A stretch of DNA of 64,000 nt from a virus: positions 128,001-192,000 of the IMG/VR virus record IMGVR_UViG_3300045988_179268; one strand, 5' to 3'. This document shows positions 5,441 through 53,010 of the stretch, one piece after another. The notes below the pieces were generated by a model. The model was not told where the DNA came from. It saw nothing but the letters and a program-made list of their open reading frames with translations, and made no database searches. Numbering within the stretch: the first letter of the stretch is position 1; each line of letters opens with the position of its first letter. The position numbers and the translations under genes were made by a program.

Positions 5441-5458
5441 CATTTTTAGTCCCAAAAA

Positions 5459-7176: not shown

Positions 7177-7216
7177 CATACCAACCAAACCCCCACCACA
7201 TCAAAGGAAAATCCCC

Positions 7217-7429
7217 ATGAAGAAGCTGTACAACATCGCAGGACTCACCTTAATCGCCACGCTTACCCTCACCGGATGCGGCAATAGTGAGAACACCCAA
7301 AAACCAGATACCACCAAGACATCCCAATCCGAAACAGACAGCCCACGCCGCGTAGTGAAACCCTGCGGGGCAGACACCACCGGCGACATTGAAATGGGTC
7401 AGGGACTCTGCGACCACGAAGAAAGGTAA
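7217..7429 (+). CDS. small lipoprotein
   Basis: MKKLYNIAGLTLIATLTLTGC has a signal peptide and lipobox LTGC. AAGGA RBS. The track ORF begins 54 nt further upstream, inside the promoter. Confidence 0.6.
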   Translation: MKKLYNIAGLTLIATLTLTGCGNSENTQKPDTTKTSQSETDSPRRVVKPCGADTTGDIEMGQGLCDHEER

Positions 7430-7441
7430 CGAACAAACACT

Positions 7442-7720
7442 ATGGAATCATTCATCTACGGAGTTGTTAAAGTAACTCTCGAATACCACACGTACCCCAA
7501 TAACCCGGAAAAGAACCATATTGAAACCCGTGCATGGTACCTAGACGATAATAACAACAAAATTAAAACTGTCAGCACTAGTGACAACCCCCAAATGGAA
7601 GTAGTTCACGCCCTCTCAGAACACAACAAGCCAGTATACCAGAACGGTTTAGTGGGTGAGATGCTAGTCATTAATACAAATGACTACTCAATCTTCGAAA
7701 CCAAATACATTACCCACTAA
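7442..7720 (+). CDS. hypothetical protein
   Basis: 92-aa ORF of ordinary (non-skewed) composition, followed by a strong terminator. No clear RBS. Confidence 0.5.
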   Translation: MESFIYGVVKVTLEYHTYPNNPEKNHIETRAWYLDDNNNKIKTVSTSDNPQMEVVHALSEHNKPVYQNGLVGEMLVINTNDYSIFETKYITH

Positions 7721-7723
7721 CAA

Positions 7724-7772
7724 AAAAGTATCCCTTAAACTCTCTACAGAGAAGAGTTTAAGGGATACTTTT
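7724..7772. terminator. rho-independent terminator
   Basis: 20-bp stem aaaagtatcccttaaactct / agagtttaagggatactttt. The A-run and T-run are part of the stem. Confidence 0.85.
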
Positions 7773-7787
7773 TGCCCTATATTTTAA

Positions 7788-8588
7788 CTAACGCCAAGAC
7801 TCCGCGTGGTTCAAATCGCCTTCACAATACGCATAAACAACATCAAACATCTCAGGATACTGCTTAATAAACTCCGCCGGACTCATGCCAGCATACGCCA
7901 AACTAGGACCACCAATCAAAAGCGCCGTCTGAGTCGAACTAAAAGCATCGGAAGACCCATACACCCCCAAAAGCTTCACAATATCCTCCCTCACAGAACC
8001 GCCCTCAAACTGGAAACCAGGGTACCCCATGACACCCACCCACGCCGGATGCTTCGAAAAATCGGACAAAGGGAACCTAAGCACACGATTACTCTTAACC
8101 ATCTCCTCCAACTCACCCGAAGTCACACCCAAATACTCACAGACAGCACGCTCCGTATAGACACCCTGCAAATCTTCACCAAACACCGACTCCACGGCAG
8201 TAAGACCCCTTGAACCCTTGGCGACGGCAGTGTCAATCCCCTCACAAATGTAAGAAGTAAGCTTCTCCCCGTCACCCTCAGCGACATCAAGATACCCCGC
8301 CTCGCACAAGTCATCAACAGCCTTGCAAAGCATCTCCTTAACCCCCTCAACAGTTAGCGGGAACTTGCCTCTACCACCATAAGCAGAATAATAAGGCTGA
8401 GAACCCTCACGTTCACGAAGCATAAACAGCCCAACAGCCGCACAACAATGAAACAGCAAAACACGTTGAAGAGACTCAGTAATCACAACATCACCAGAGC
8501 CAACCTTCACATCAACATACTCACAAACCTCCTGCTTCACACCAGCAAGAACCTCAGCCTGCGCACTAGAAATAACACGAGAAGACAT
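7788..8588 (-). CDS. HTH plus DUF2384-like (Xre/MbcA/ParS-antitoxin-like C-terminal domain) protein, paralog family 2
   Basis: 266 aa. HTH-like YTERAVCEYLGVTSGELEEMV, then YPGFQFEGGSV, then MSPAEFIK. G/T-ending codons. Confidence 0.6.
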   Translation of the reverse strand: MSSRVISSAQAEVLAGVKQEVCEYVDVKVGSGDVVITESLQRVLLFHCCAAVGLFMLREREGSQPYYSAYGGRGKFPLTVEGVKEMLCKAVDDLCEAGYLDVAEGDGEKLTSYICEGIDTAVAKGSRGLTAVESVFGEDLQGVYTERAVCEYLGVTSGELEEMVKSNRVLRFPLSDFSKHPAWVGVMGYPGFQFEGGSVREDIVKLLGVYGSSDAFSSTQTALLIGGPSLAYAGMSPAEFIKQYPEMFDVVYAYCEGDLNHAESWR

Positions 8589-8629
8589 TAAGCAACCCCC
8601 ACAATAGAAAGAAAAATAAGTGCAAAACT

Positions 8630-8638
8630 ATGATACCA
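8630..8638 (-). promoter_or_regulatory. SigA-type promoter, extended -10
   Basis: TGGTATCAT on the minus strand, about 42 nt upstream of ATG 8588. Confidence 0.45.
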
Positions 8639-8663
8639 AACAAGGCAACACAAACACTAAAAA

Positions 8664-8700
8664 CTGGGAGGGGTGAAACAAAAAACTTCACCCCTCCCAG
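8664..8700 (-). terminator. rho-independent terminator
   Basis: 14-bp perfect stem ctgggaggggtgaa / ttcacccctcccag. T-run on the minus strand, downstream of the stop of 8714..9910. Confidence 0.85.
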
Positions 8701-8713
8701 CACCTACAAACGG

Positions 8714-9910
8714 CTACCCGCAATACCGCACAACCGCAAGAACCGCATCCACATACTCATCACCAAGACGCGCATACTCAACAGGCGCAACCAACCCAAA
8801 CCACGGCGACGGACTCTCCAAAAACTCAACAATACGGTCATCACCCCAACCCCAATCACGCAACTCACCCACAAGACGCACAGACCCAGAGAAAAACACC
8901 CAATCAATCACTAACCCATCATCCCCATAAACAGGCATCAGATGCACACCCTCAACAATATAATCGCCATCCCCATACTTCCCCGCCAGCAACTCGCCAG
9001 ACTCACACATACCCGCCACTACATCCTCAGGAACCCCCAACCCCTTAGCTACCTTGTGGGGTGGCAAACCAGCCCAACGGACACCATTAGAACGCTCATC
9101 AATACTAGCGAAACGGTGAACCAAAACACCCCACGGGACACGCAAAACCTCAGCCAAAGCCCCCAAATCAGCCAAAGAACCGCCACCCACAGACGGAACA
9201 ACACCTGCCACCGTCAAAGCAACAACATTCCCCGGCACTGGAACATTACCCACACCAGCACGCCCCCACGCACGCCCAACAACCTCAGCGCGCCGCCCCA
9301 ACGCACATTCACGCGCATCATCCAACACAAGAGCAACCAGAGCCTCATCACCCGACATCAACAACTCAGCCGCCGACAAAAACCCATACTCAAACGACGG
9401 CGTGAACAAAAAATCATCAGTAATATGAGGCTTCACACCAACAGCCCTGAACATCTTCACACACTCAAAAAACTCAGGGTTAAACCTCAAAGCGCCCTCA
9501 CCAGACACACTCCAAACTCCCTTACCGGCACCACCCCAAAACTGGGCACGAGTAAACAGCAAAGCACCCTCCCAGATGCCACCATTAAGGTAACCCTCCT
9601 CATACAGGCGCATCACCTCAGTGCCCGGCAACCCCTTATCCTCCAGCTCAGCCAAAGACAACCCGTCACCCCACTCACAATAAATACCCCACCCGGCAGA
9701 ACCGCCTCCAAACGCTTCCTCCAAACGCTCATACATGAACTCAGTAGAGACACCAAGAACACTAGAAACTAGCTCAAAATGCTCATTCTCCCAATCATAA
9801 GTAGACTTGGGAAGCCCTAAAGAACGAACCCTCAACACATCCTCAGCAGAGAAAAACTTGAAGCCAGGGTACTCATCAAAAACATTGTGCAACATGGAAG
9901 TAGCCTCCAA
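8714..9910 (-). CDS. DUF2384-like domain protein, paralog family 2 (larger member)
   Basis: 398 aa. C-terminal LMPVYGDDGLV..FLESPSPWFGLVAPVEYARLGD. GGAGG RBS 8 nt upstream of the ATG. Third codon positions are almost all G/T. Confidence 0.6.
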   Translation of the reverse strand: MEATSMLHNVFDEYPGFKFFSAEDVLRVRSLGLPKSTYDWENEHFELVSSVLGVSTEFMYERLEEAFGGGSAGWGIYCEWGDGLSLAELEDKGLPGTEVMRLYEEGYLNGGIWEGALLFTRAQFWGGAGKGVWSVSGEGALRFNPEFFECVKMFRAVGVKPHITDDFLFTPSFEYGFLSAAELLMSGDEALVALVLDDARECALGRRAEVVGRAWGRAGVGNVPVPGNVVALTVAGVVPSVGGGSLADLGALAEVLRVPWGVLVHRFASIDERSNGVRWAGLPPHKVAKGLGVPEDVVAGMCESGELLAGKYGDGDYIVEGVHLMPVYGDDGLVIDWVFFSGSVRLVGELRDWGWGDDRIVEFLESPSPWFGLVAPVEYARLGDEYVDAVLAVVRYCG

Positions 9911-10054
9911 AAGAAAAACAAAAATACTTGCACTCCCTATAATACCCCCCCCCTCAAAAAATCAAGAAAACACGCCGGTAAACATCTCTAGATACAATAC
10001 ATCCCACGCATAGAAGAGAATTAGAACACCCCTAAAGAGCATCCATCGCAAATA

Positions 10055-10065
10055 TGTGGTACAAT
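10055..10065 (+). promoter_or_regulatory. SigA-type promoter, extended -10
   Basis: TGTGGTACAAT, followed by leader hairpin ggttgagg/cctcaacc at 10078-10097. Confidence 0.6.
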
Positions 10066-10178
10066 CTAAACATGAAAGGTTGAGGTGAGCCTCAACCCAC
10101 CACCCCACCCTAACCATACAGGGAACCCAAAAAAGGGGCGAACACCCAATCATTAAACACAGAAAGAGAGCATCAACA

Positions 10179-11000
10179 ATGCGAAACATCACCCCCTTCC
10201 TCTACTGGGAAACCCTCAACACCAACGACGGTATCCTCCTCATCCCCACCGACAACACCACCAACGACCGCATGGCAATCTACACCATCGACCAGGTAAC
10301 CAACACCGACCACGCCACCGCACGCCTGCGCCACGCAAGCTTCAACGCACCCAAGACCATCACCCTCACCCGCACCAACGGACAGCTCACCACCAACGAC
10401 CTACCAGACCTCAAAGCCGTAAACATCGGCACCCGAGGCGACGCTATCGAACCCACCTACTACGCCGTCGAAAACGACGACAACATCACCATCTGGTACA
10501 GCACCGAACACTACAACGACATCGCCATCGCACACACCCTCAAAGCCAACGGAGAAACCCGCGTAATCTTCCACGAACCCGACGAATACGATACCCCCGA
10601 AGGCGGGTACAACATCTGGACAGTCCTCCAAGCAACCGAAAACTACGAAGACACCGACACCCTCCCCGAAACCTTCAACATCCCAGAAGCCAACACCGCA
10701 CCTCTCACCCCCGAAACCGCACTAGCACTCCACGACACCCTCAACCACCCCGAATACCACACCCTCAACGACAAAGAAACCCTCGAAGAAGAACTAATCT
10801 CCCTCTGGCAAAACATCTCAGACTACTACGCAATCCCTGGCGAAATGCACTGGGTATCCGACACTGAAATCCTCTGGCGCGCCAAAGACTACCTCACCAC
10901 CGTACACGACATCGCAATCAAAGAAGGACGCGCCAACCTAGCCAACCAAACCCTCCACCACATCAACACCATCACCACCCACACCAACTACGAAGAATAA
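10179..11000 (+). CDS. acidic hypothetical protein (Thr/Asn/His/Asp/Glu-rich)
   Basis: 273-aa ORF with an ATG start and its own promoter. Third codon positions are almost exclusively C or A, the mirror image of its minus-strand neighbours. Confidence 0.6.
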   Translation: MRNITPFLYWETLNTNDGILLIPTDNTTNDRMAIYTIDQVTNTDHATARLRHASFNAPKTITLTRTNGQLTTNDLPDLKAVNIGTRGDAIEPTYYAVENDDNITIWYSTEHYNDIAIAHTLKANGETRVIFHEPDEYDTPEGGYNIWTVLQATENYEDTDTLPETFNIPEANTAPLTPETALALHDTLNHPEYHTLNDKETLEEELISLWQNISDYYAIPGEMHWVSDTEILWRAKDYLTTVHDIAIKEGRANLANQTLHHINTITTHTNYEE

Positions 11001-11021
11001 CCCCCAAAACACCAAAAGATA

Positions 11022-11057
11022 CCCCTGGCAACCCGCACAAACACGGGAAACCAGGGG
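11022..11057. terminator. terminator hairpin between convergent genes
   Basis: cccctgg/ccagggg outer stem plus cccg/cggg inner stem. The minus-strand side is followed by tatcttttggtgtttt. Confidence 0.6.
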
Positions 11058-11083
11058 CATCTTCCTATACCACCAACAACACA

Positions 11084-13360
11084 CTAACCACCCAAAACCG
11101 ACACAACCTCACCCACCGAAACACCCAACCCCAACACCGGCGAACCAACCGGCACATCAACCCAACCACCAGAAACACCCCAACCAGAACGACCAAACAA
11201 CCCAGCAGACCCACCACCACCAGAAACAACCCCCACCGGCGAACCAAACCCCTCACTACCAGCCACAAACCCCAAACCCAACCCACCATCCAAACCACCA
11301 CGCCCAGAAACAACCGAACCAACAACACCAGACAAAACACGCCCACCAACAGACCCCAAAACACCATCCAAACCACCACGCAACAACCCCCACAAAACAC
11401 CAGAACCCAAACCCGCAACCCTACCAAACACCGGACAAACCCCCGACAACCCCAAACCACCACCAACACCAGACACCACATCAACCAACCCCACCACAGA
11501 CGAAACACCCCTCAAACCACCAACCAAAGAACCCACCGGCGACCCACCAGGCAAAACACCACCACCAAACACACCCGACAAACCCCCAACACCCCACAAA
11601 CCAGACACACCATCAACCACACCACCACAAGAACCAGCAACCCCCACCGACAAAACACCACCACCAAACACCGACCCAAACCCCACAGGAACAAGCCCCG
11701 CCCCAAACACAAGAGAACGCCACAACCACCCATCAACATCAACCACAGCCCCAACACCCCCATCAACAAAACCACCATCAACATCAAAACCCTCAACAGC
11801 ACCAACAACACCAGACACACCCGGCACAAAACCACCAGCCCCAACACCCCAAACACCAACCCTACGCCCAAAACCAGCCCCAACACCACCACCACCCAAA
11901 ACACCCAAACCAGCAGACGACAAACCCCAAGAACAAGACAACCCGCCAACACCAGAAACACCCCCACCAACCGGCAACCCAAAAACCCCAACAACACCCG
12001 ACAAATCAACACCAAACCCCGAAACAGAACCCAAACCAGCCAACGCATCCAACCCAGACACCCCCGACACCAACCACGGCACAGCAACCCCAACACCACC
12101 AGAAACCCCACCAACATCCGCCGCACCAGCACCCACACCACCAAACCCAGCAGAGCCAACCCCACCAAAATCAACCCCACCGACAAAATCACCAACGGGC
12201 AAACCAATCGGCAAACCGCACACCCCAGACCCCATAAACAACCCCACTGGCGAACAACCCAACATGCCCAATAACCCATCAACCCCACCAGCCACAGAAC
12301 CACCAAACCCAGACGAAGAACCAAACCTCACGCCAGAACCACCCACAACACCAAACAAACCCGAACCTCTAGAAGCCCCCACAGACCTATTAAAACTAGT
12401 AGAAGGTAAAACAGTACCGCCAATAGACAAAACACCCTCAGAAGCCCCCTCAAGCCCCGTAGAAACCCCCTCTATAGTAACCCCATCAGTAGCAGGCTCA
12501 GAAAACTCCTCGCCACCACCCCAAAAACCCTCAACAAAACCGCCACCAACACCAACCCCCACAAAACCCCCAACACCATCCACAACACCAGACGAGCCCC
12601 ACCCCACCGACACACCAACCCCCACAGGCTCAACAAAACCGGCACCACGAAGCGAACCACCCCAAACACCAACCCGCCCATCAACCCCCAACAACCCAAC
12701 AACACCAGAATCAACGCCCCACAACTCAACACCAACCCCACCCGGAACAAACACCCCACACACACCACCAGACAACCCATCCCCCAACAACCCAGAACCC
12801 AAACCACCAACACCAACACCAGACTCCAAAACACCACGCCCAACAACCACAACAACCACACTCCAAAAAAGAAAAAACAAAAAAATAGTACACCACAAAC
12901 ATAGCCACAAAAACACCCCCACCCAGACAACCCCCAAAAAACAAAACCCCCAACACCCACCCAACAAACAAAAACCCCACAAAAACACCCCCACAACAAA
13001 AAAAACCAAACCAACCACCCCAAGCAAACCCCAAAAAACAACGCACCACAAACCCAAAACCACACAAAGAACTTGGGCAACACTAAAAATAAACACCAAA
13101 AACACGAATAACCAAGACACAAGACACAAGAGAAAAGGAAAAAGCAACAAGACATAACAGACACAGACACGCAAAGAGGAAAGCAATAACACTACAAAGA
13201 AAGAAGTACCCAGGATAAACAGATACACAAAATAAACACCAATACACGACAGACATAGAGGATAAGCGCAGACACATACACCATAAACAGAAAGAAGCAC
13301 AGGCACACAATACGCAAGCACAGAAAAACACGAAGGCAACAACAGATACAAGAGACACAC
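11084..13360 (-). CDS. low-complexity Gly/Val/Ser-rich ORF (coding strand and true start uncertain)
   Basis: 758-aa ORF ending 26 nt before a terminator that works best on the minus strand. The rare bases show 3-nt periodicity. All six frames are nearly stop-free here, and a Pro/Thr-rich + frame (open 11088-13157, first ATG at 12264) shares the same wobble position. Confidence 0.3.
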   Translation of the reverse strand: MCLLYLLLPSCFSVLAYCVPVLLSVYGVCVCAYPLCLSCIGVYFVYLFILGTSFFVVLLLSSLRVCVCYVLLLFPFLLCLVSWLFVFLVFIFSVAQVLCVVLGLWCVVFWGLLGVVGLVFFVVGVFLWGFCLLGGCWGFCFLGVVWVGVFLWLCLWCTIFLFFLFWSVVVVVVGRGVLESGVGVGGLGSGLLGDGLSGGVCGVFVPGGVGVELWGVDSGVVGLLGVDGRVGVWGGSLRGAGFVEPVGVGVSVGWGSSGVVDGVGGFVGVGVGGGFVEGFWGGGEEFSEPATDGVTIEGVSTGLEGASEGVLSIGGTVLPSTSFNRSVGASRGSGLFGVVGGSGVRFGSSSGFGGSVAGGVDGLLGMLGCSPVGLFMGSGVCGLPIGLPVGDFVGGVDFGGVGSAGFGGVGAGAADVGGVSGGVGVAVPWLVSGVSGLDALAGLGSVSGFGVDLSGVVGVFGLPVGGGVSGVGGLSCSWGLSSAGLGVLGGGGVGAGFGRRVGVWGVGAGGFVPGVSGVVGAVEGFDVDGGFVDGGVGAVVDVDGWLWRSLVFGAGLVPVGFGSVFGGGVLSVGVAGSCGGVVDGVSGLWGVGGLSGVFGGGVLPGGSPVGSLVGGLRGVSSVVGLVDVVSGVGGGLGLSGVCPVFGRVAGLGSGVLWGLLRGGLDGVLGSVGGRVLSGVVGSVVSGRGGLDGGLGLGFVAGSEGFGSPVGVVSGGGGSAGLFGRSGWGVSGGWVDVPVGSPVLGLGVSVGEVVSVLGG

Positions 13361-13709
13361 AAAAGAAGATAAGAGGCAACACAGTACGTATACACAAGAA
13401 AGGCAAAAGAAGCATAAAGAGAGGACATAAGAGCGGAAGGCACATATATGCTAGAAACACATAGGGATACACGCAGACTAAGTAATACACGACAGGTATA
13501 GAGAGGGTAGGTAGATAGGGTAAGCACGCATAGGATGGCACACGGTATATACGGAGGGGCTAGAAACGGTTAGTGGGTGTGAGTGGTGGTAGGTTGGGCA
13601 GGGTGGAAGGTGGTGTGGTGGTTGGGTGTGGTGTGGGTCATATTGCTCACGCGGTTGGTTGCTCTTTCCCTTTTTTCTTTCTCCTTTTCTTGTGTTTTTG
13701 GTAGCGTGC

Positions 13710-13772
13710 TGTGGCGCGGGGTATTTTTGGGTGTTTCGGTATGTGGGGGAATGTATCATTTGCCCTAGTCAG
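13710..13772 (+). repeat. 63-bp perfect direct repeat, copy 1
   Basis: tgtggcgcggggtatttttgggtgtttcggtatgtgggggaatgtatcatttgccctagtcag, identical to 13955-14017. Confidence 0.95.
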
Positions 13773-13811
13773 GACGTTTTTGCGTTTTGGGTGACAGGGC
13801 TGTAGTAGTGG

Positions 13812-13954: not shown

Positions 13955-14017
13955 TGTGGCGCGGGGTATTTTTGGGTGTTTCGGTATGTGGGGGAATGTA
14001 TCATTTGCCCTAGTCAG
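13955..14017 (+). repeat. 63-bp perfect direct repeat, copy 2
   Basis: Identical to 13710-13772, offset by 245 bp. Confidence 0.95.
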
Positions 14018-14058
14018 CGCGTTATGCACTTTGGTACAGATTCTCATTTTCAGGGGTT

Positions 14059-17409: not shown

Positions 17410-17503
17410 ATGACGGCTAGGTGTTGTACGTGGTGTGCGGCTAACTAATATAGTTCTTTGTGTCCCACTTCACACATATTTGGCTTGCATACAGTTTTAA
17501 ATC

Positions 17504-17514
17504 TGTGATAGACT
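17504..17514 (+). promoter_or_regulatory. SigA-type promoter, extended -10 with -35 TTGCAT
   Basis: AAATCTGTGATAGACT. TTGCAT at 17485-17490 with an 18-nt spacer. Confidence 0.75.
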
Positions 17515-17586
17515 ATAAATATAAGGCAAGCGGGAAAGAAACCCGAAAGCCACGAAGCATCAACCAACTACCGAAGGGTGGCAACC

Positions 17587-23831: not shown

Positions 23832-23919
23832 GGAATACTAGCATATAAGAGAAGAATGCATCTATGGTAGTATGGATGTTCCACCTCGCCTATATTTGCT
23901 TTGCGCATGGTTTAGAATC

Positions 23920-23930
23920 TGTGATAGACT
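23920..23930 (+). promoter_or_regulatory. SigA-type promoter, extended -10
   Basis: GAATCTGTGATAGACT with TTGCGC 18 nt upstream. Confidence 0.75.
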
Positions 23931-24001
23931 ATAGGTGTAGCAAGGAAGATGATTTCCAATGAAAAGCTACAGCCACTTTCCTAGACTGAGAGGTTGTCGT
24001 T

Positions 24002-25178: not shown

Positions 25179-25230
25179 TCTATTCCTTAAAGGTGTGACA
25201 GATTCCGTTTCGGGTGTATGACGCTAAATC

Positions 25231-25241
25231 TGTGATAGAAT
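25231..25241 (+). promoter_or_regulatory. SigA-type promoter, extended -10
   Basis: AAATCTGTGATAGAAT. Confidence 0.7.
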
Positions 25242-25307
25242 ATATGTGTAGGGCAAGCAGATTGGAAACCTGATGTCCATTTAAACCCACTGAAAGGATT
25301 GTTAATC

Positions 25308-30282: not shown

Positions 30283-30703
30283 GTTCCATACCCAATACAT
30301 CCCAGCAATATGCGGGGCAACTATCTGGTGCCACCATCATTAATTAGGACAAGTTGCTTTTCTATCGGCGTGAAGACATGATGCTCCCTATATTCTTCTT
30401 CCAGATGATAACCCCTTAGTGGATGAGGTCTATACCCCATCTCAGTAAGGGGTTATCTCTATACCGATGTCCCCCGCTAGTCGTTGGCGCGGCTATTGCC
30501 AGGCTGGGTCTGTCTCTAAGGGCGTCCTCACTGAATGATGCGCGCCCTTAAGATTCTCCCCTGAGAGATTGAAGATACTCTCAACAATGAAGCACTGATT
30601 GTCGAGAGTATCGGTGTCACCAAGAAACTTTCCCAGTCCCTTAAGCTGGTTGCCGAATAAGGCTTTCATTGCATCAAGAAGAGCCGCCCATCAGTAAGAG
30701 ATA

Positions 30704-30712
30704 TTGTACAAT
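30704..30712 (+). promoter_or_regulatory. promoter of structured RNA copy A
   Basis: TTGTACAAT within the palindrome ATATTGTACAATAT. Aligns with TGGTATAAT and TGATACAAT of copies B and C. Confidence 0.5.
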
Positions 30713-30719
30713 ATAAATA

Positions 30720-30912
30720 ACACCTCGCCTGTGAGAGATGGGAGAGGTGTTGAATCTAAACGGATAGGTGACTCTGGTTGCCTGTCAAGACCAGGATAGC
30801 TGGCTCAGGTCGGCTTGAGGGTCACCGTTAGGGAGAATCCCTGACCCACCCAGACATGGAAGAGTAGATATATTATCATGTCTTCTCTTGCGTGTTTTGA
30901 GGTGGCTCTACG
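30720..30912 (+). ncRNA. structured RNA family, copy A (~190 nt, unknown class)
   Basis: Shares CACCTCGCCTGTGAGAGAYGGGAGAGGT, AAAYAAACGGA, GTCAAGACCAGGA, GTYAGGGAGAATCCCTGACCCACCCAG and GAGGTGGCTCTA with copies B and C. Helices are kept despite sequence change. Confidence 0.7.
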
Positions 30913-31061
30913 AAAAAATTGTGTTGCACGTACCTGCTGGAACCACAAAGTAAAAGGTGCCCTGCTGATATTTATCCTCTAACCGTGGGCGCGTATCGTA
31001 GATAGTGTGGCTAAAGCCGCTCAGGTTTGCGAGGGCTGGCAGTTGTGCCACCTATTAAAGT

Positions 31062-31072
31062 TGTGATAGAAT
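31062..31072 (+). promoter_or_regulatory. SigA-type promoter, extended -10
   Basis: TGTGATAGAAT. The ATG of track ORF 31071 lies inside this -10. Confidence 0.6.
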
Positions 31073-31078
31073 GGATTT

Positions 31079-31182
31079 GTCCTCCTTAAGGGGTGGATGT
31101 CATTGTGGATGGGGCTCCCCGGCAATTCACTATGTGACCTGCGGATGTTTGGTCATATGGCGGCTTGCCGGGGTGTTTCTTT
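31079..31182 (+). ncRNA. candidate small RNA (~100 nt)
   Basis: Promoter, then a long hairpin with outer stem ccccggcaa / ttgccgggg (31117-31173) and inner stem atgtgacc / ggtcatat, then tgtttcttt. Confidence 0.45.
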
Positions 31183-31526
31183 ATGCTCGGCAATATCTTT
31201 ATTACATAACGGTTGCCTGCATTATAATTGCTATGGGTGACGGAATGGTTTCCTTGGTTGATGTGGGCGTGTCGCTTGCAAAATTACACGTTGCTGTGTT
31301 ATATTTAGAAATGACTGCCTCCTGTTGGCAATTCTTTCTTTCTGGGTGACCCCAAGTTTCATTATGCGGATTCTGCTTACTCGCGTAATGGGGCTTGGGG
31401 TTTCTTCTTTGTAGGCATCTCCCTTATAGACAATATGGCATTAGGTTCGAAACCCCTGCCTGGGCAAGCGGGCGACCCCCTTATTTGCGCCGCCTGCATC
31501 CCTAACTCGCAGATAGTTAAAAGATA

Positions 31527-31535
31527 TGGTATAAT
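31527..31535 (+). promoter_or_regulatory. promoter of structured RNA copy B
   Basis: TGGTATAAT. The upstream CGCAGATAGTTAAAAGATA is shared with copy C. Confidence 0.65.
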
Positions 31536-31542
31536 CCAAGTA

Positions 31543-31752
31543 TTACCTCGCCTGTGAGAGACGGGAGAGGTCGTTAAAATAAACGGACACTACTAAGCTC
31601 AGATGGGTTACGGTGGTGTCAAGACCAGGAGGGCTGACCCTTTGTTGGGTTGGCTTGAGGGTTACCGTCAGGGAGAATCCCTGACCCACCCAGCCGTTGG
31701 GAGAGTAGGCATACCATCATGCCTTTTCTCGCGTGTTTTGAGGTGGCTCTAC
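31543..31752 (+). ncRNA. structured RNA family, copy B (~210 nt; may extend to the 31781-31811 terminator)
   Basis: Same conserved blocks as A and C. Helix GACACTAC/GTGGTGTC replaces GATAGG/CCTGTC of copy A. Confidence 0.7.
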
Positions 31753-31780
31753 TTTGAGAGCATCTAGCCCCTAGTTACGT

Positions 31781-31811
31781 AAACCCCCTACAGGAAGCCC
31801 ATAGGGGGTTT
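31781..31811 (+). terminator. rho-independent terminator
   Basis: 10-bp stem aaacccccta / tagggggttt. Confidence 0.75.
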
Positions 31812-31994
31812 ATTGGTATTCACTATCACCTTATCGCGCTTCTTTTCAGCCTTGAAAGCCCCTCAGTCGCCACGTAAGCCAGGAAAACCAATGATTACTA
31901 AAATCCCCCATAGTACACAGTAAAAGGTGTTAGAATCGCTTTCAACGGCTTTCTAGGCGTGTCGCCACACCATTTGCGTAACCCGTAATCTTTA

Positions 31995-32003
31995 TGCTAA
32001 ACT
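31995..32003 (+). promoter_or_regulatory. SigA-type promoter, extended -10
   Basis: TGCTAAACT, 137 nt upstream of ATG 32140. The leader contains a 12-bp hairpin. Confidence 0.5.
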
Positions 32004-32139
32004 AGGCTTATCCTCCTTTGAGGGATTGGTTGATTACTGTTGGGATTCCCCTGGCGACCTGTTGCGTGGCGTTAAATCATATTTAGCACGATGGGTTGCC
32101 AGGGGTTTCCTGCACTCTAGACAGAAAGAATAATCCACT

Positions 32140-32961
32140 ATGGAAACTTTGCATACTTTGGCAGGCAGTATGCCACTGGCATACATTACGGCAACACTTG
32201 ATACAGTAACTCCACCCGAATCTCTTATCACTCTATTTGATGAGTACTTTCAGTATTTCGCGCGTAAGGGTCATGTTGAACCGTCGGACGCTGAGCAAGT
32301 ACGCCCCATTCTAGACCTCATCAACTATGATTACTCACTGCCGAGTGGTGATAATGGGTTGCCAGGCGCAAACAATAATGTATCTCTGCTGGATAGCATT
32401 GCTGGGTTGCCGCCTGTAGCAACTCTAGCCGCCCGATACAGGTTCATGCAGGAAGTTTACGGCAATAATCCACAGAAAGATGGAATCCCGGCGGCATTGA
32501 CGGGCGAAATGCTTACCAGCGAGGCAGTGGCAGAAGCTCTAGAAGTTACTGAACGACACTTAGCGGAACGCCTTGACGTAAATGAAGGCGGCGGTGTCCT
32601 TAGCGTAGACACTCCGGGCGGCGTTCGGTATCCAGCAAAGCAGTTTAATGCTGATGGCTCGGTGAATAGGCTTGTGGCGACGCTGATTCGATGGCTACCA
32701 CGCAGGCTTATCGAGGGGCAGGAATGGGTAAAGCTTTTCATCCCCCATGTCGCCCTTGGGTACGTATCCCCGGTGGAGTATGCGAAGATTAGTGATGACC
32801 ATAGGGAATCTCTTGCTTTTGCGTATTCGCGCTGTGAGGAATGGGTAGATGACGCGGCTCACATGGAAGCATACATGAGTGGCGATTTTGAAAATAGCCC
32901 CTATTGGGATGACTATGCCGATAGATTGGAGGAGTGGGTTGTTGAAGATGGTTTAGCGTGA
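32140..32961 (+). CDS. HTH plus DUF2384-like protein, paralog family 2
   Basis: 273 aa. GIPAALTGEMLTSEAVAEALEVTERHL, VRYPAKQFNADGSV, ALGYVSPVEYAKISDDHRE. Confidence 0.7.
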   Translation: METLHTLAGSMPLAYITATLDTVTPPESLITLFDEYFQYFARKGHVEPSDAEQVRPILDLINYDYSLPSGDNGLPGANNNVSLLDSIAGLPPVATLAARYRFMQEVYGNNPQKDGIPAALTGEMLTSEAVAEALEVTERHLAERLDVNEGGGVLSVDTPGGVRYPAKQFNADGSVNRLVATLIRWLPRRLIEGQEWVKLFIPHVALGYVSPVEYAKISDDHRESLAFAYSRCEEWVDDAAHMEAYMSGDFENSPYWDDYADRLEEWVVEDGLA

Positions 32962-33063
32962 GTATTGCGCGTGAAGCCCCTTGGGAAAAACTCTTCAAAA
33001 ATCGTCCCCACTAAGTTGCATACGGTTTCAAGGCATTCCTGCCCCGCAGACAGTTAAAAGATA

Positions 33064-33072
33064 TGATACAAT
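33064..33072 (+). promoter_or_regulatory. promoter of structured RNA copy C
   Basis: TGATACAAT with the shared upstream CGCAGACAGTTAAAAGATA. Confidence 0.65.
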
Positions 33073-33078
33073 CCAAGT

Positions 33079-33270
33079 ATCACCTCGCCTGTGAGAGACG
33101 GGAGAGGTACCTAAAATAAACGGACATTACCAACCCCAATAGCAATTGGGTGAAGATGGTGTCAAGACCAGGAAGGCTGGCGATAGCCAGCTGGAGGGTT
33201 ACCGTCAGGGCTAAGCCTTGACCCGCCTAACCGCGTAGAGGTATTTCCTTATGCGCGGGGGTGGCTCTAA
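33079..33270 (+). ncRNA. structured RNA family, copy C (~190 nt)
   Basis: Conserved blocks plus compensatory changes (GTCAGGGC-taa-GCCTTGAC; gctggc-gata-gccagc). No terminator before the CDS at 33353, so it may also act as its leader. Confidence 0.7.
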
Positions 33271-33352
33271 GAGATGGCACATTGCAAAATGAGCACCCTA
33301 ACCTCAGGTGTAAACAGGTATAACTCATCCAGTAATTAAGAGAGAGGCACCC

Positions 33353-33835
33353 ATGTCATCCGAGAAGCACCCCTACGTACAGCGCGAGAACTTCGACTCT
33401 GGAGAACTCTACAAGTTCTTTAAGGATAACCTTATCGGTCGCAAAATCACCAAGATTACCCATGAAAGCATCAAGCTTGATAACGGTTATGTTGTCAAGA
33501 TTCACCCTAACTATGGTTGCGACTGTGGCAAGGGCAACTCATTTATTGACTTCCCCTCTGCCAAGGGCGCCTTAGATGCCGCCATCATGAACATTGAGTA
33601 TGAGGAGACGGAGTATGACGAGAAGTTCGGTGAGCCTGGCTTCAAAATCTTCATCCTCATGAAAAACAACAAGATTTGCTTCGAAGGCAACGACGCATCC
33701 GATGGTGAGCCTTACTATGGCTCCGGCTTCTGGGTGGACGCGACCATGCCCGCAGACCGCGAACGCGAAGCCGAGGAAGCTAAGCGTAGGGAAGAGGCGC
33801 GCCGCGCCCGCAATGGCGGTATCCTCTGGTGGTAA
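33353..33835 (+). CDS. hypothetical protein with Arg/Glu-rich C-terminal tail
   Basis: 160-aa ORF with a purine-rich RBS. Contains CDCGKGN and a REREAEEAKRREEARRAR tail. Confidence 0.65.
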   Translation: MSSEKHPYVQRENFDSGELYKFFKDNLIGRKITKITHESIKLDNGYVVKIHPNYGCDCGKGNSFIDFPSAKGALDAAIMNIEYEETEYDEKFGEPGFKIFILMKNNKICFEGNDASDGEPYYGSGFWVDATMPADREREAEEAKRREEARRARNGGILWW

Positions 33836-40867: not shown

Positions 40868-40904
40868 GGGGTGGAGTGTTTTGGTATGTGAAGCACTTCA
40901 CCCC
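40868..40904 (+). terminator. terminator-like hairpin
   Basis: 11-bp stem ggggtggagtg / cacttcacccc (one G-U). Weak T-run. Confidence 0.5.
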
Positions 40905-40931
40905 CTACTGGGTTGCATAGCCTTCAAAATC

Positions 40932-40942
40932 TGTGGTAGACT
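40932..40942 (+). promoter_or_regulatory. SigA-type promoter, extended -10 with -35 TTGCAT
   Basis: TTGCAT-N18-TAGACT with AAAATCTGTGGTAGACT. Confidence 0.75.
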
Positions 40943-41000
40943 ATAGGTGTAACGAGGTGAACACCTCAAGATTCTAGTTTTCTACCGAAAGGTTCTCATC

Positions 41001-51702: not shown

Positions 51703-51713
51703 TGTGGTACAAT
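51703..51713 (+). promoter_or_regulatory. SigA-type promoter, extended -10 (drives tnpB)
   Basis: TGTGGTACAAT with TTGATG 16 nt upstream. The track start ATG 51712 is inside the -10. Confidence 0.65.
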
Positions 51714-51738
51714 GAGCATAAATGAAAGGAGGAACCTG

Positions 51739-53010
51739 ATGCAACTGACGGAGAGGCACCTTGTTAAGCCGAACCATGAGCTTTATGCGACCCTGGATGA
51801 CTTAACGTTCAAGGCTAAGAACCTTTACAATCATGGGCTATATCTGTACCGTCAGTCGTATTTTGAACACAAAAAGAGCCCTGATGCGCCGGTCTTAACC
51901 TGGGTGGATATTGATAAGAGCCTGCGTAAACAGGGGCACGATGATATTCGTGCTTTGCCGTCTAAAGTCGCTAATGCTGTGCTAAAAAACTTAGGCGAAA
52001 ACATCACGTCGTTTTGGAAATTAGTGCGCCTAAAAAATAGTGGTAAGCTGGCACAAAAGCCTAAGCTCCCTCATTATCTTCATAAGACTGATGGGCGTTA
52101 CGCTGTGTCTTTTAATTATCAGACTTTTGGCAATAAACGTGGCGCTAACGGGGAGCTATTCTTATGCCCAAAGGGTATTAATCTCCCCATTCCTACTAAG
52201 ATTGCTAATCCTAAGCAGGTTCGTATTGTTCCCAACCTCAATAATTTTATTATTGAGGTTATTTATGACGCGGAAGAAAGTGCGCCTAAAAGCACGTCTA
52301 AATATGCTGGTATTGATTTAGGAGTAGATAATTTTGCTACCATCACATTCTCCACCCAAAACCAACCCCTCATTATTAAGGGTCTTGAATTAAAGTCCAT
52401 CAATCAGGGCTATAACCGTCTTATCGCCAAGGCACAGTCTTTGCTTCCAGGTTCCCAGAAGACAAGTCAGTCCATCCACCGTCTTTGGTCACGTCGCTCG
52501 TGGATTCTTCGCACGAAAATCCATCAGATGACAGCGTTCCTAGCTACTCTTTTTGACGAGATGCAGATTGAAAAAGTCTTCATTGGGAAAAATACTGGCT
52601 GGAAGCAGAACCTGCCTTTCGGCAAGAAGGTTAAACAGCGATTCGCATTTCTACCTTATGAAACTTTTATTGAGCAATTGCAGTATAAATGCCAATTGCG
52701 AGGAATTACTGTCATTACCCAGGAAGAATCCTACACATCTAAGGCGAGCTTCCTAGATAATGATGATATTCCTGTTTACGGTGAGACAGAGAATCCAAAG
52801 TTTTCTGGACGCAGGATTAAGCGAGGACTTTACAAAACCAGTGATGGGCGACTAATCAATGCTGACGTTAATGGGTCATATAACATTATGCGAAAAGGAC
52901 TGATGAACAATAATCAGTCCTTACGTGTGGACAACCCATTAATTCATCCCCTTGTCGTCAAGGGAATTGGGCAGGAATCTAACGATAAGTTGGTTCAACT
53001 ATACATGTAA
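51739..53010 (+). CDS. tnpB: TnpB (IS200/IS605-family OrfB, RuvC-like RNA-guided nuclease family)
   Basis: 423 aa from ATG 51739 (AGGAGG RBS). RuvC motifs GIDLGVDNFATI, QEESYTSKASFLD and NADVNGSYNIMRKG, plus GKNTGWKQN. No CxxC zinc-finger pairs. No adjacent tnpA. Confidence 0.8.
   Translation: MQLTERHLVKPNHELYATLDDLTFKAKNLYNHGLYLYRQSYFEHKKSPDAPVLTWVDIDKSLRKQGHDDIRALPSKVANAVLKNLGENITSFWKLVRLKNSGKLAQKPKLPHYLHKTDGRYAVSFNYQTFGNKRGANGELFLCPKGINLPIPTKIANPKQVRIVPNLNNFIIEVIYDAEESAPKSTSKYAGIDLGVDNFATITFSTQNQPLIIKGLELKSINQGYNRLIAKAQSLLPGSQKTSQSIHRLWSRRSWILRTKIHQMTAFLATLFDEMQIEKVFIGKNTGWKQNLPFGKKVKQRFAFLPYETFIEQLQYKCQLRGITVITQEESYTSKASFLDNDDIPVYGETENPKFSGRRIKRGLYKTSDGRLINADVNGSYNIMRKGLMNNNQSLRVDNPLIHPLVVKGIGQESNDKLVQLYM

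What the first reader, a model, noticed from the sequence alone, without database searches (positions are those of the whole stretch)
30700..33275. Three paralogous ~190-210 nt structured RNAs with their own promoters and compensatory base changes (unknown class)
Copies lie at 30720-30912, 31543-31752 and 33079-33270, each starting about 7-9 nt after an extended -10 (TTGTACAAT, TGGTATAAT, TGATACAAT). Copies B and C also share about 30 nt upstream of the -10. Conserved blocks are CACCUCGCCUGUGAGAGAYGGGAGAGGU, AAAYAAACGGA, GUCAAGACCAGGA, GAGGGUYACCGU, GUYAGGGAGAAUCCCUGACCCACCCAG and GAGGUGGCUCUA. Between these blocks the sequences differ but pairing is preserved in four places:
1. The helix after AAACG is GAUAGG/CCUGUC in A, GACACUAC/GUGGUGUC in B and GACAUUA/UGGUGUC in C.
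2. The hairpin after CCAGGA is agcug..cggcu in A, gcugaccc..ggguuggc in B and gcuggc-gaua-gccagc in C.
3. The conserved hairpin is GUUAGGGA/UCCCUGAC in A (U-G), GUCAGGGA/UCCCUGAC in B and GUCAGGGC-uaa-GCCUUGAC in C (A-U replaced by C-G, plus one G-U).
4. A variable 3' hairpin is aagag/cucuu in A, ggcau/augcc in B and ccgcgu/gcgcgg in C.
The 5' CACCUC can pair either locally with GAGGU(G) about 20 nt downstream or with the 3' terminal GAGGUG, which would allow a switch or a closing helix. None of the copies contains an ORF with an RBS. Copy B is followed by a terminator, and copy C runs without a terminator into CDS 33353. I could not match the RNA to tRNA, tmRNA, RNase P, SRP, 6S or the common riboswitch consensus sequences from memory. 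The sequences just 3' of the conserved GGCUCUA end differ completely between copies, which leaves open a guide-like or target-specific 3' segment.
Basis: partly seen in the sequence, partly recalled or inferred. Interest (0 to 1): 0.85.

Follow-up and report, generated by a model that had tools for sequence, protein, structure and literature searches.

The report
Stand-alone Cas12n guide RNA genes
The three structured RNAs are self-contained guide RNAs of a miniature CRISPR nuclease (Cas12n, type V-N), each with its own promoter, carried on a roughly 300-kb mobile element from the human mouth whose relatives use such guides against one another.

Summary
Three paralogous units of about 190-210 nt lie at 30721-30908, 31544-31749 and 33081-33267 (+). 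Each follows a conserved -10 region and keeps the same helices through compensatory changes.

The class is not unknown. A covariance model built from relatives of these copies matches, over its full length (E about 1e-13 to 1e-14), the 3' end of chromosomal Rothia cas12n genes. One of these is the RdCas12n locus whose sgRNA complex is solved (PDB 9J09). Shared features are five stems, a stem-1-loop/3'-end pseudoknot that covaries across three lineages, an anti-repeat:repeat stem 5, and a 3' guide.

In sister elements (160-371 kb oral metagenome contigs) the same scaffold flanks a Cas12n ortholog, heads mini CRISPR arrays and alternates with tRNA genes. Their guides match sister elements next to 5'-AAN, the published Cas12n PAM.

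The window copies are therefore natural single-guide RNAs: scaffold, repeat and one guide. The window holds no cas12n, and its TnpB at 51.7 kb is a distant, unrelated homolog. No targets were found for the three guides.

Verdict: a known kind of RNA in an unusual organisation (dispersed, promoter-driven, locally orphan). Interest is moderate to high.

The parts
30704..30712 (+). Promoter -10 region of unit A (TTGTACAAT; hexamer TACAAT 30707-30712), inside the conserved block AAGAGATATTGTACAAT
   Evidence: Read from the sequence. The block is conserved in all three copies. 43 of 252 family copies have TGnTAnnnT 5-14 nt before stem 1. No transcript data.
30721..30908 (+). Unit A scaffold (tracr-like part fused to one repeat). 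Stem 1 with loop GAGAG at 30733-30737. Stem 4 at 30828-30846. Anti-repeat CCACCC at 30847-30852 pairing with GAGGUGG at 30899-30905. Pseudoknot CUC at 30906-30908.
   Evidence: Model R1 136.5 bits over 30721-30856. MFE z -6.05. Alignments A2 and A3.
30909..30929 (+). Unit A guide: position -1 (T, 30909) plus 20 nt ACGAAAAAATTGTGTTGCAC
   Evidence: Family logic: the sequence right after GGCUC varies and matches AAN-flanked sites in sister elements for other guides. Homology with sister locus L130 resumes exactly at 30909. No target found.
31527..31535 (+). Promoter extended -10 of unit B (TGGTATAAT)
   Evidence: Sequence. Identical in sister loci L130 and L040.
31544..31749 (+). Unit B scaffold. 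Stem-1 loop GAGAG at 31556-31560. Pseudoknot CUC at 31747-31749.
   Evidence: R1 123.8 bits over 31544-31696. MFE z -5.11. 100% identical scaffold in L130 and L040.
31750..31770 (+). Unit B guide: -1 T plus ACTTTGAGAGCATCTAGCCC
   Evidence: Position after GGCUC. Sister loci carry 9 extra nt (GTCATTGAG) exactly at this junction. No target found.
31781..31815 (+). Terminator-like hairpin after unit B (AAACCCCCUA...UAGGGGGUUU plus U-rich tail), 31 nt after GGCUC
   Evidence: Terminator scan calls 31795-31811; the wider stem is read by eye from the sequence. The same layout (scaffold, about 21 nt, terminator) occurs in sister loci L003 and L031.
33064..33072 (+). Promoter extended -10 of unit C (TGATACAAT)
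   Evidence: Sequence. About 30 nt upstream are shared with unit B (repeat D12).
33081..33267 (+). Unit C scaffold. Stem-1 loop GAGAG at 33093-33097. Anti-repeat CCGCCUAACCGCG pairing with CGCGGGGGUGG. Pseudoknot CUC at 33265-33267.
   Evidence: R1 128.2 bits over 33081-33233. MFE z -4.50. The 3' end UAUGCGCGGGGGUGGCUC matches the family repeat consensus CCCGUACACGCGGGGAUGGCUC.
33268..33288 (+). Unit C guide: -1 T plus AAGAGATGGCACATTGCAAA. No terminator before CDS 33353-33835 (DUF7448).
   Evidence: Sequence. Homology to sister loci L081 and L066 resumes at 33268/33269. No target found.

Best explanation
Each unit is a gene for a natural single-guide RNA of a type V-N (Cas12n) CRISPR system. 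The proposed sequence of events is as follows.

1. Transcription starts a few nucleotides after an extended -10 promoter (inferred).
2. The roughly 190-nt transcript folds into the Cas12n scaffold. Stem 1 has a GAGAG loop that pairs with the CUC just before the guide (pseudoknot). Stems 2-4 follow. Stem 5 is the tracr anti-repeat (CCACCC...) paired in cis with one CRISPR repeat (...GGUGG) (shown by homology and covariation).
3. The 20 nt after GGCUC-N are the guide.
4. A Cas12n ortholog binds the RNA. It is not encoded in the window. It may be encoded elsewhere on the same roughly 300-kb element, on a co-resident sister element, or less likely by the Rothia-like host.
5. The complex cuts double-stranded DNA that carries 5'-AAN next to a match to the guide (inferred from RdCas12n biochemistry and from the protospacers of sister guides).

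The biological role is most likely conflict between related mobile elements (exclusion or incompatibility). Guides of sister elements hit sister elements' cas12n, scaffold and tRNA genes, and also 'empty' alleles of their own insertion sites.
For: Identity of the RNA:
- Model R1, built only from element-borne copies, matches full length (1-136) at L232 3210-3356 (56 bits, E 4e-14) and at L229-231 5555-5716 (52 bits, E 5e-13). These positions lie across the 3' end of chromosomal Rothia cas12n genes.
- The L232 protein P0098 aligns with PDB 9J09_A (RdCas12n) over all 540 residues, 1136 bits.
- The published sgRNA has a 194-nt scaffold, five stems, and a pseudoknot of nt -4..-2 with the stem-1 loop, with a 3' guide (PMC12216341). 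The tracrRNA is known to lie inside the cas12n mRNA (PMC11641405).
- The pseudoknot covaries across lineages: GAG:CUC in the elements, GAA:UUC in R. dentocariosa, GGC:GCC in R. mucilaginosa.
- Helix covariation is strong. The base of stem 5 pairs at 82-91% in 5 of 7 positions across 204 units.

Genomic association:
- A Cas12n ortholog aligning with RdCas12n at E 6e-145 over residues 104-501 sits directly before or after scaffold copies. This is seen in L007, in about 25 metagenome loci and in L238-243.

Array nature:
- The scaffold's 3' end recurs as a 22-25-nt repeat with a period of about 61 nt.

Guide function:
- Of 173 guides, 60 have non-array matches in only 2.3 Mb of sister-element DNA.
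- 83 of the 158 distinct sites carry AA at -3/-2, against a background of 6.5%. C is preferred at -1. This matches the published AAN/AAC PAM.
- Matches of internal spacers stop at the spacer end.

Window copies:
- They score as high as any family member.
- They keep their structure despite 20-30% divergence from one another.
- Unit B has the layout promoter, scaffold, about 30 nt, terminator.
Against: - No cas12n lies in the 64-kb window (tblastn), nor within 10 kb beyond its end in the same sample.
- cas12n is missing at the place where sister elements carry it. The effector for these three guides is therefore not shown.
- No AAN-flanked target for guides A, B or C was found in the held loci, IMG/VR, or the phage and plasmid collections. 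No seed match of 8 nt or more exists in the window.
- Sister alleles that carry the guide-matching sequence at sites A and C lack AAN.
- Unit B differs from its 100%-identical sister scaffolds by a 9-nt indel right at the guide start. This argues against strong constraint on that guide.
- Unit C has no terminator and may simply be the 5' part of the DUF7448 mRNA.
- There are no expression data.
Confidence: 0.8

Rival explanations
1. Orphan decoy RNAs (an RNA anti-CRISPR). The element lacks cas12n and expresses scaffold-guide RNAs that load the Cas12n of attacking sister elements, or of the host, with harmless guides. This blunts interference against itself.
For: - cas12n is absent from the window, from the syntenic site and from +10 kb.
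- Sister elements demonstrably aim guides at each other's cas12n and scaffold genes, so there is pressure for counter-measures.
- No targets were found for A-C.
- The 9-nt indel at the start of guide B suggests the guide sequence is unconstrained.
- Precedent from my own knowledge: phage-borne solitary repeat units acting as RNA anti-CRISPRs, summarised in PMC11656645.
Against: - Only about a fifth of the roughly 300-kb element is visible, so cas12n may lie elsewhere. In contig 174689, single units (L002, L003) lie 35-80 kb from cas12n.
- A decoy would not need a full-length guide followed by a terminator.
- Many stand-alone units in sister elements do have AAN-flanked targets.
Confidence: 0.12
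2. Omega-RNA-like homing units. The scaffold is the right end of a mobile or recombining cassette and the guide is simply the flanking DNA. The RNA directs Cas12n to cut 'empty' alleles (AAN followed by the same flank) in sister elements. Repair from the filled copy then spreads the cassette, as with TnpB.
For: - In all three window units, homology to sister elements breaks exactly at the scaffold 3' end.
- Among terminal guides, 22 of 56 AAN-flanked matches continue as homology for at least 100 nt downstream. These are empty alleles with AAN right before the junction. 44% of all extended-homology sites have AAN against 6.5% background.
- 13 of 38 guides with AAN sites are of this type.
- Cas12n is the Cas12 closest to TnpB, and in L007 it follows a serine recombinase ORF as in IS607.
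Against: - The available empty alleles for window sites A and C lack AAN: CAT or CCT at A, GTC at C.
- At site A the alternative allele is a different 956-nt block, not a clean empty site.
- No cassette left end or terminal repeats were defined.
- Internal spacers behave as ordinary acquired spacers.
Confidence: 0.15
3. Decaying remnants of former CRISPR-Cas12n loci with no present function. Alternatively, cis-acting 5' leaders of the downstream genes.
For: - No local cas12n and no targets found.
- Unit C runs into CDS 33353 without a terminator.
- Units A and B are followed by a second, weakly conserved promoter/leader element before ORFs.
Against: - All three score at the top of the family range and keep every helix through compensatory change.
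- The promoters are conserved.
- Unit B is identical across three independent metagenome assemblies.
- The same RNA occurs inside tRNA arrays and next to cas12n, where a leader role is impossible.
Confidence: 0.05
4. Guide RNAs of the window's own TnpB (51712-53010).
For: It is a TnpB-family nuclease in the same window (Pfam OrfB_IS605 plus Cas12f1-like_TNB; NCBIfam guided_TnpB).
Against: - It is only 24% identical to the scaffold-associated Cas12n over 190 residues.
- No scaffold-like sequence lies at or after its 3' end.
- In every informative locus the scaffold's neighbour is the Cas12n ortholog, not this protein.
Confidence: 0.02

Closest known systems
tracrRNA:crRNA (sgRNA) of type V-N CRISPR-Cas12n (formerly V-U4/C2c9), e.g. 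Rothia dentocariosa RdCas12n (PDB 9J09/9UDI; Nat Commun 2025, PMC12216341; Chen et al. Mol Cell 2023)
   Same: - Sequence and structure homology (R1 hit, E 4e-14, at the RdCas12n locus).
- Five stems, a stem-1-loop/3'-end pseudoknot, anti-repeat:repeat stem 5, and a 20-nt guide at the 3' end.
- 5'-AAN PAM inferred from protospacers.
- A Cas12n ortholog adjacent in sister loci.
   Different: - In the chromosomal Rothia loci the scaffold overlaps the 3' end of the cas12n ORF and heads one array of about 11 repeats.
- Here the scaffold is a free-standing gene with its own promoter, fused to a single repeat and a single guide. It is present in three diverged copies (dozens per sister element) and has no cas12n nearby.
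- Pseudoknot triplet is GAG:CUC instead of GAA:UUC.
- The carrier is a roughly 300-kb mobile element rather than a chromosome.
TnpB omega RNA / reRNA of IS200/IS605 and IS607 elements
   Same: - A long scaffold followed directly by a guide made of the adjacent DNA.
- Homology breakpoints lie exactly at the scaffold end.
- Many sister 'empty' alleles carry the PAM/TAM right at the junction.
- The nuclease is a close TnpB relative (NCBIfam IS607_TnpB 2.9e-67).
   Different: - Contains a repeat:anti-repeat stem and, in sister loci, true spacer-repeat arrays.
- Not embedded in the nuclease gene.
- No transposon ends were identified.
- The window's alternative alleles lack the PAM.
tracr-L, the natural single-guide RNA of Streptococcus pyogenes Cas9 (bioRxiv 10.1101/2020.05.21.102756; Cell 2021)
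   Same: A naturally encoded RNA that unites scaffold and guide in one transcript.
   Different: It belongs to type II. It is a single copy inside the cas operon. Its guide is short and partially matching, and it represses the cas promoter. No such self-target was found here.
CRISPR mini-arrays and solitary repeat units on viruses and plasmids (inter-element competition; RNA anti-CRISPRs), reviewed in PMC11656645
   Same: Minimal guide-encoding units carried by a mobile element. Sister guides target related elements.
   Different: Those units consist of repeats and spacers only and rely on host tracr/Cas. Here each unit carries the complete 150-nt tracr-like scaffold.
Engineered polycistronic tRNA-gRNA arrays (own knowledge: Xie et al. 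PNAS 2015; reviewed in PMC7062760)
   Same: In sister loci, scaffold-guide units alternate with tRNA genes. L007 has 12 units and 20 tRNAs in about 10 kb. RNase P/Z processing could therefore release the guides.
   Different: This arrangement is natural, not engineered. It is not present in the window (0 tRNAs), where promoters and a terminator delimit the units instead.

Membership tests
Type V-N (Cas12n) guide RNA scaffold (tracrRNA + repeat) | Sequence/structure homology to the tracrRNA region of an experimentally characterised Cas12n | tested here: met
   R1, built without any Rothia chromosomal sequence, hits L232 3210-3356 (56.2 bits, E 3.9e-14, model 1-136). The L232 protein aligns with 9J09_A over 1-540. 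The window copies score 124-136 bits with the same model.
Type V-N (Cas12n) guide RNA scaffold (tracrRNA + repeat) | Five-stem architecture with a pseudoknot between the stem-1 loop and the 3 nt preceding the guide | tested here: met
   Stems 1-4 are supported by covariation and the base of stem 5 by pairing. The pseudoknot triplets GAG:CUC, GAA:UUC and GGC:GCC covary in three lineages, matching the cryo-EM description. 3D structure was not tested.
Type V-N (Cas12n) guide RNA scaffold (tracrRNA + repeat) | The 3' part is a CRISPR repeat that recurs with spacers | tested here: met
   In sister loci the repeat CCCGUACACGYGGGGMUGGCUC recurs with a period of about 61 nt: 231 repeat matches, 66 unique internal spacers. 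In the window only one repeat is present per unit.
Type V-N (Cas12n) guide RNA scaffold (tracrRNA + repeat) | Guides match DNA flanked by 5'-AAN | tested here: met
   For the family, 83 of 158 protospacer sites have AA at -3/-2 against 6.5% background. For the three window guides the test is inconclusive because no target was found.
Type V-N (Cas12n) guide RNA scaffold (tracrRNA + repeat) | Encoded next to, or overlapping, a cas12n gene | tested here: not met
   Met in sister elements and in Rothia chromosomes. Not met in the window: no cas12n in 64 kb or in the next 10 kb. This bears on how the units are supplied with protein, not on what the RNA is.
Type V-N (Cas12n) guide RNA scaffold (tracrRNA + repeat) | Binds Cas12n and supports RNA-guided DNA cleavage | not testable with these tools
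   Needs biochemistry or a plasmid-interference assay.
TnpB omega RNA (IS200/IS605/IS607) | Scaffold overlaps the 3' end of tnpB and the transposon right end; the guide is the flanking DNA; the TAM equals the insertion-site motif | tested here: inconclusive
   The guide-as-flank pattern and AAN-bearing empty alleles are seen for 13 of 38 sister guides. No overlap with a tnpB exists here, no element ends were defined, and the alternative alleles of the window sites lack AAN.
Any Rfam family | Score at or above a family's gathering threshold | tested here: not met
   0 hits in the window at gathering thresholds. Only chance-level hits at E >= 0.76 in 30400-33500.

The most novel reading that the evidence does not exclude
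The window's element has lost cas12n, or never had it, and keeps three promoter-driven natural sgRNAs that exploit a Cas12n made by someone else (a co-resident sister element or the Rothia-like host). The RNAs would either re-arm that nuclease against the element's rivals or disarm it as decoys. More broadly, in this element family new guides may arise without Cas1-Cas2, by placing a scaffold-repeat cassette next to an AAN site (omega-RNA style). That would make the family a living intermediate between transposon guide RNAs and CRISPR arrays, including natural tRNA-gRNA arrays.
Probability: 0.25. Interest if true: 0.85.

Novelty: new variant of a known kind. Interest (0 to 1): 0.6.

Why it matters
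Cas12n is regarded as the Cas12 closest to its transposon ancestor TnpB, and it is being engineered as a miniature genome editor. These loci show its guide RNA in forms not described in the papers I could search:
- free-standing genes with promoter, scaffold, one repeat, one guide and a terminator (natural sgRNAs);
- dozens of diverged scaffold copies per element;
- in sister elements, units alternating with tRNA genes, a natural counterpart of engineered tRNA-gRNA arrays.

The protospacers indicate Cas12n-based warfare among roughly 300-kb elements of the human oral microbiome. Targets include each other's cas12n, guide-scaffold and tRNA genes.

The breakpoints at the scaffold end, together with AAN-bearing empty alleles, make the transition from omega RNA to CRISPR directly testable.

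Practically, the more than 200 natural scaffold variants (minimal forms of about 145 nt) are a ready-made resource for sgRNA engineering, and an Rfam family could be built from them.

Tried and rejected
- Rfam at gathering and permissive thresholds gave nothing.
- ARAGORN found no tRNA or tmRNA in the window.
- blastn of the 2.7-kb region against the plasmid and phage collections gave no match.
- Early ideas were considered from memory and dropped once the repeat arrays and the Cas12n ORF appeared in L004. These were: single-strand promoters of conjugative leading regions (Frpo-like), retron msr-msd, IS110 bridge RNA, GOLLD/ROOL-type phage RNAs, Y RNA and riboswitch leaders.
- The motif scan of GTDB representative genomes found nothing. 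The protein scan there returned only actinobacterial TnpBs at 38% identity or less, and no Rothia. Rothia loci had to be reached through the search for homologous proteins and the look-up of encoding contigs.
- The TnpB at 51.7 kb was rejected as partner.
- The third TnpB-like ORF just beyond the window (L235 13135-14688) is not a Cas12n ortholog and has no scaffold nearby.
- The listing of cluster members gave no sample accessions, so I could not tell whether the source sample holds an element-type cas12n.
- Target searches for guides A, B and C were all negative: held loci with up to 4 mismatches, exact AAN+18 nt in IMG/VR, blastn against phages and plasmids, and AAN plus a seed of 8 nt or more in the window and its extension.
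- The 5'/3' closing-helix or switch idea was rejected.
- PHROGs and Pfam scans of neighbouring ORFs gave almost no annotation, so whether the element is a plasmid or a phage is left open.

Full report

Yes. The three copies are direct-repeat families in the window and align over about 190-210 nt. Their conserved core motif occurs 3 times, against 0 in 100 shuffles. Each folds far better than its shuffles (z -6.1, -5.1, -4.5).

A covariance model (R1) built later from 40 relatives scores them 136.5, 128.2 and 123.8 bits. Nothing else in the 64 kb scores above 7.4 bits, with filters off. There are therefore exactly three copies.

All three share an upstream block ...AAGATATGNTAYAAT... that ends 8-9 nt before the first helix. 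Copy B is followed, 31 nt after the conserved end, by a terminator-like hairpin with a T-rich tail (calls 31795-31811; read by eye as 31781-31815). Copy C has no terminator before CDS 33353.

Rfam has no match.

**2. What turned up elsewhere**

The core motif found the same RNA in two IMG/VR contigs of 307 and 361 kb. A stem-1 motif then found at least 117 loci on metagenome contigs of mostly 160-371 kb. It found none in GTDB representative genomes. In the DNA I hold there are 258 copies, 221 of them unique, falling into 129 clusters below 90% identity.

Reading one locus (L004/L007) settled the identity in three steps:

- The scaffold begins about 20 nt after the stop codon of a 520-aa TnpB-like ORF.
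- The last 22-25 nt of the RNA (CCCGUACACGYGGGGMUGGCUC) recur downstream with a period of about 61 nt. These are short CRISPR arrays whose first repeat is fused to the scaffold.
- Twelve such units alternate with 20 tRNA genes within about 10 kb.

The ORF aligns with PDB 9J09, RdCas12n of Rothia dentocariosa (type V-N, formerly V-U4), at E 6e-145 (PMC12216341). Orthologs 82-98% identical to it lie next to scaffold copies in about 25 further metagenome loci. In L238-243 the scaffold sits on both sides of the gene.

**3. Test of membership**

I fetched chromosomal Rothia cas12n loci through the protein collection. P0098 aligns with the crystallised RdCas12n over all 540 residues. R1 contains no Rothia chromosomal sequence. 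It nevertheless matches full length across the 3' end of these genes: L232 3210-3356 at E 4e-14, and R. mucilaginosa L229-231 5555-5716 at E 5e-13. This is where the Cas12n tracrRNA is known to lie, inside the cas12n mRNA (PMC11641405). Arrays of about 10-11 repeats follow.

The published sgRNA has a 194-nt scaffold with five stems. It also has a pseudoknot in which nt -4 to -2 pair with the stem-1 loop. The same contact can be read in three lineages with three different triplets:

- elements: GAG:CUC
- R. dentocariosa: GAA:UUC
- R. mucilaginosa: GGC:GCC

On a structure-blind alignment of 40 relatives, the four helices modelled show the following:

- 96.2% of cells pair, against 31-45% in slid controls.
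- 17 of 33 pairs have changes on both sides (151 cells).
- No shuffle reaches the observed score.

Stem 1 is invariant, but it was also the fishing pattern, so it says nothing either way.

The base of stem 5 (anti-repeat CCAnCC with repeat GGnUGG) pairs at 82-91% in five of seven positions.

Only 10 of 203 units have GAGGTG there.

**4. Do such units act as guides?**

I extracted 66 internal spacers and 115 terminal guides, that is, sequences after the last or only repeat. I searched them against the 2.3 Mb of sister-element DNA I hold.

- 60 of 173 guides have matches outside arrays.
- 83 of the 158 distinct sites carry AA at -3/-2, against a dinucleotide background of 6.5%. C is preferred at -1. 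This is the published 5'-AAN (AAC) PAM.
- The nucleotide right after GGCUC behaves as scaffold position -1. It is often mismatched to the target (36 of 83 identical).
- Matches of internal spacers stop at the spacer end, with identity of 0.23 beyond it, as expected for acquired spacers.

Targets include the following:

- the cas12n ORF of sister elements;
- the scaffold gene itself, with the conserved CUAAA serving as PAM;
- tRNA genes in antisense orientation, where the complement of the T-loop (TTCGAAC or TTTGAAC) supplies AAC.

A further class is notable. For 22 of 56 AAN sites of terminal guides, the homology continues for at least 100 nt downstream. In these cases the guide is simply the DNA flanking the unit, and the sister element carries an 'empty' allele with AAN exactly at the junction. 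That is the logic of TnpB omega RNAs.

**5. The three window units**

They have the layout promoter, scaffold, one repeat, guide. Their guides are:

- A: ACGAAAAAATTGTGTTGCAC
- B: ACTTTGAGAGCATCTAGCCC
- C: AAGAGATGGCACATTGCAAA

Each guide follows GGCUC-U. In all three, homology with sister elements changes exactly at the scaffold's 3' end:

- At A, L130 carries an unrelated 956-nt block and becomes identical from 30909 onward.
- At B, L130 and L040 have the identical scaffold but 9 extra nt right after GGCUC.
- At C, L081 and L066 have 740-950 extra nt between a scaffold and the sequence that follows GGCUC in the window.

The alternative alleles at A and C lack AAN. I found no AAN-flanked target for any of the three guides. 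I also found no seed match in the window that would suggest self-regulation.

The window holds no cas12n. Its own TnpB (51712-53010) is a distant relative without this scaffold.

In the same sample (ERR589699, human oral metagenome PRJEB6997), the 10 kb beyond the window end contain another TnpB-like ORF, but it is not a Cas12n. Sister elements place cas12n about 3.5 kb downstream of the homolog of window ORF 58362-59720. The window has other genes at that position. The three units are therefore at least locally orphan. Only about a fifth of the element is visible, and in contig 174689 single units lie 35-80 kb from cas12n.

**6. Explanation and rivals**

It is shown that the RNAs are Cas12n-type scaffolds fused to a repeat and followed by a guide position. 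It is also shown that the family's guides have PAM-flanked matches in sister elements.

It is inferred that the window units are transcribed from their -10 boxes, are bound by an element-type Cas12n supplied in trans, and direct cleavage of AAN-flanked DNA in conflicts between related elements.

I hold that the RNA is a Cas12n guide scaffold with confidence above 0.9. I hold the full functional statement with confidence of about 0.6. The value of 0.8 reported for the best explanation is a compromise between the two.

The rivals are:

- decoy or anti-CRISPR RNAs of an element lacking cas12n;
- omega-RNA-like homing units;
- remnants or leaders;
- partnership with the local TnpB.

The first two are not excluded. 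They overlap with the main reading and carry most of the remaining novelty.

**7. Novelty**

The RNA class is known: the Cas12n tracrRNA/crRNA has a solved structure. It is absent from Rfam.

I found no description of the following in the searchable literature:

- dispersed, promoter-driven natural sgRNA genes;
- many diverged scaffolds per element;
- tRNA-interleaved scaffold-guide arrays;
- guides aimed at sister elements' cas12n, scaffold and tRNA genes;
- their residence on roughly 300-kb oral elements.

The nearest published concepts are 'omega-RNA arrays' (PMC10691335), the tracr-L natural sgRNA of Cas9, and viral mini-arrays. I therefore file the finding as a new variant of a known kind.

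Host assignment to Rothia rests only on the nearest chromosomal homologs of the protein (54-58% identity) and of the RNA. It is not proven.

Noticed in passing
window 31040-31200 and 31985-32140: A second, weakly conserved repeated element lies downstream of units A and B. It comprises an extended -10 (TGTGATAGAAT / TATGCTAAACT), then UCCUCCUU (anti-Shine-Dalgarno-like), then a long hairpin with compensatory changes (CCCCGGCAA..UUGCCGGGG against CCCCUGGCGACC..GGUUGCCAGGGG). It precedes ORFs 31071-31349 and 32140-32961. A shared ACA(A/C)AGTAAAAGGTG motif lies further upstream. It may be a structured 5' leader.
   Followed up: partly
window 17461-17517, 23877-23933, 40889-40945, 59997-60053 (also 25225-25273): Four to five copies of a promoter-like block ending AAATCTGTGATAGACTATA (extended -10 type) are spread over the window (repeat families D8 and D20). 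This suggests a shared regulon or promoter cassette.
   Followed up: no
window about 5400-13500: Extreme strand composition: GC skew down to -0.58 and AT skew up to +0.68, with many degenerate CCA/ACA-rich repeats. The minus-strand ORF 11084-13360 translates to a Gly/Val-rich low-complexity protein. The plus strand would give Pro/Thr-rich peptides. It is unclear which strand, if either, is coding.
   Followed up: partly
window 13710-13778 and 13955-14023: Two 69-nt direct repeats, 97% identical and 245 nt apart, sit at the point where the strand skew changes sign (family D15).
   Followed up: no
window 51712-53010: An IS605/IS1341-type TnpB (Pfam OrfB_IS605 plus Cas12f1-like_TNB), unrelated to the scaffold family. 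No tnpA is evident next to it. Its own omega RNA was not looked for.
   Followed up: partly
L235 13135-14688 (about 3.1 kb beyond the window end, same sample ERR589699): A third TnpB-like 517-aa ORF is present in this sample but absent from the otherwise collinear loci L234, L236 and L237. This is an insertion polymorphism. It is not a Cas12n ortholog and has no R1 scaffold nearby. A resolvase-type ORF lies about 5 kb further on.
   Followed up: partly
L007 7500-17700 (IMG/VR contig 3300045988_174689) and other sister loci: Natural arrays in which scaffold-guide units (some with 2-4 further repeats) alternate with tRNA genes. There are 12 units and 20 tRNAs in about 10 kb. 682 tRNA genes occur in 1.35 Mb of sister-element loci. 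In L007 a serine recombinase ORF (8361-9137) and a scaffold copy precede cas12n, as in IS607.
   Followed up: partly
sister loci, e.g. L036 9672, L057 1898, L061 5444, L034 2677: At least 8 guides match tRNA genes in antisense orientation, with the PAM supplied by the complement of the conserved T-loop (..TTCGAAC| or ..TTTGAAC|). Whether the targets are rival elements' tRNA arrays or host tRNA genes is open.
   Followed up: partly
L238-L243 (268-293 kb sister elements), around cas12n: cas12n is flanked by an RNA ligase gene (PF09414), a PspA-like gene and, further on, a TROVE/Ro60-like plus VWA protein. This is an RNA-repair-like neighbourhood beside tRNA arrays.
   Followed up: no
window 31749/31750 against L130 2434-2442 and L040: A 9-nt indel (GTCATTGAG) lies exactly between GGCUC and the guide of unit B, in otherwise 100% identical scaffolds. 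It shifts the guide register.
   Followed up: partly
L004 1640-1730 and 2290-2380; L005 about 720; window 30910-30930: A recurrent trailer motif ACGAAAAACATGTGGTACA(G) follows many arrays. It resembles the window's guide A (ACGAAAAAATTGTGTTGCAC; 4 mismatches, many loci). Guide A may derive from a conserved array trailer rather than from an acquired spacer.
   Followed up: partly
window 49-5191: VirB4-like AAA_10 ATPase, ParA-like ATPase and VirB11-like T2SSE ATPase lie at the window start. This suggests a conjugative or secretion module, so the element may be plasmid-like although IMG/VR files its relatives as viral.
   Followed up: no
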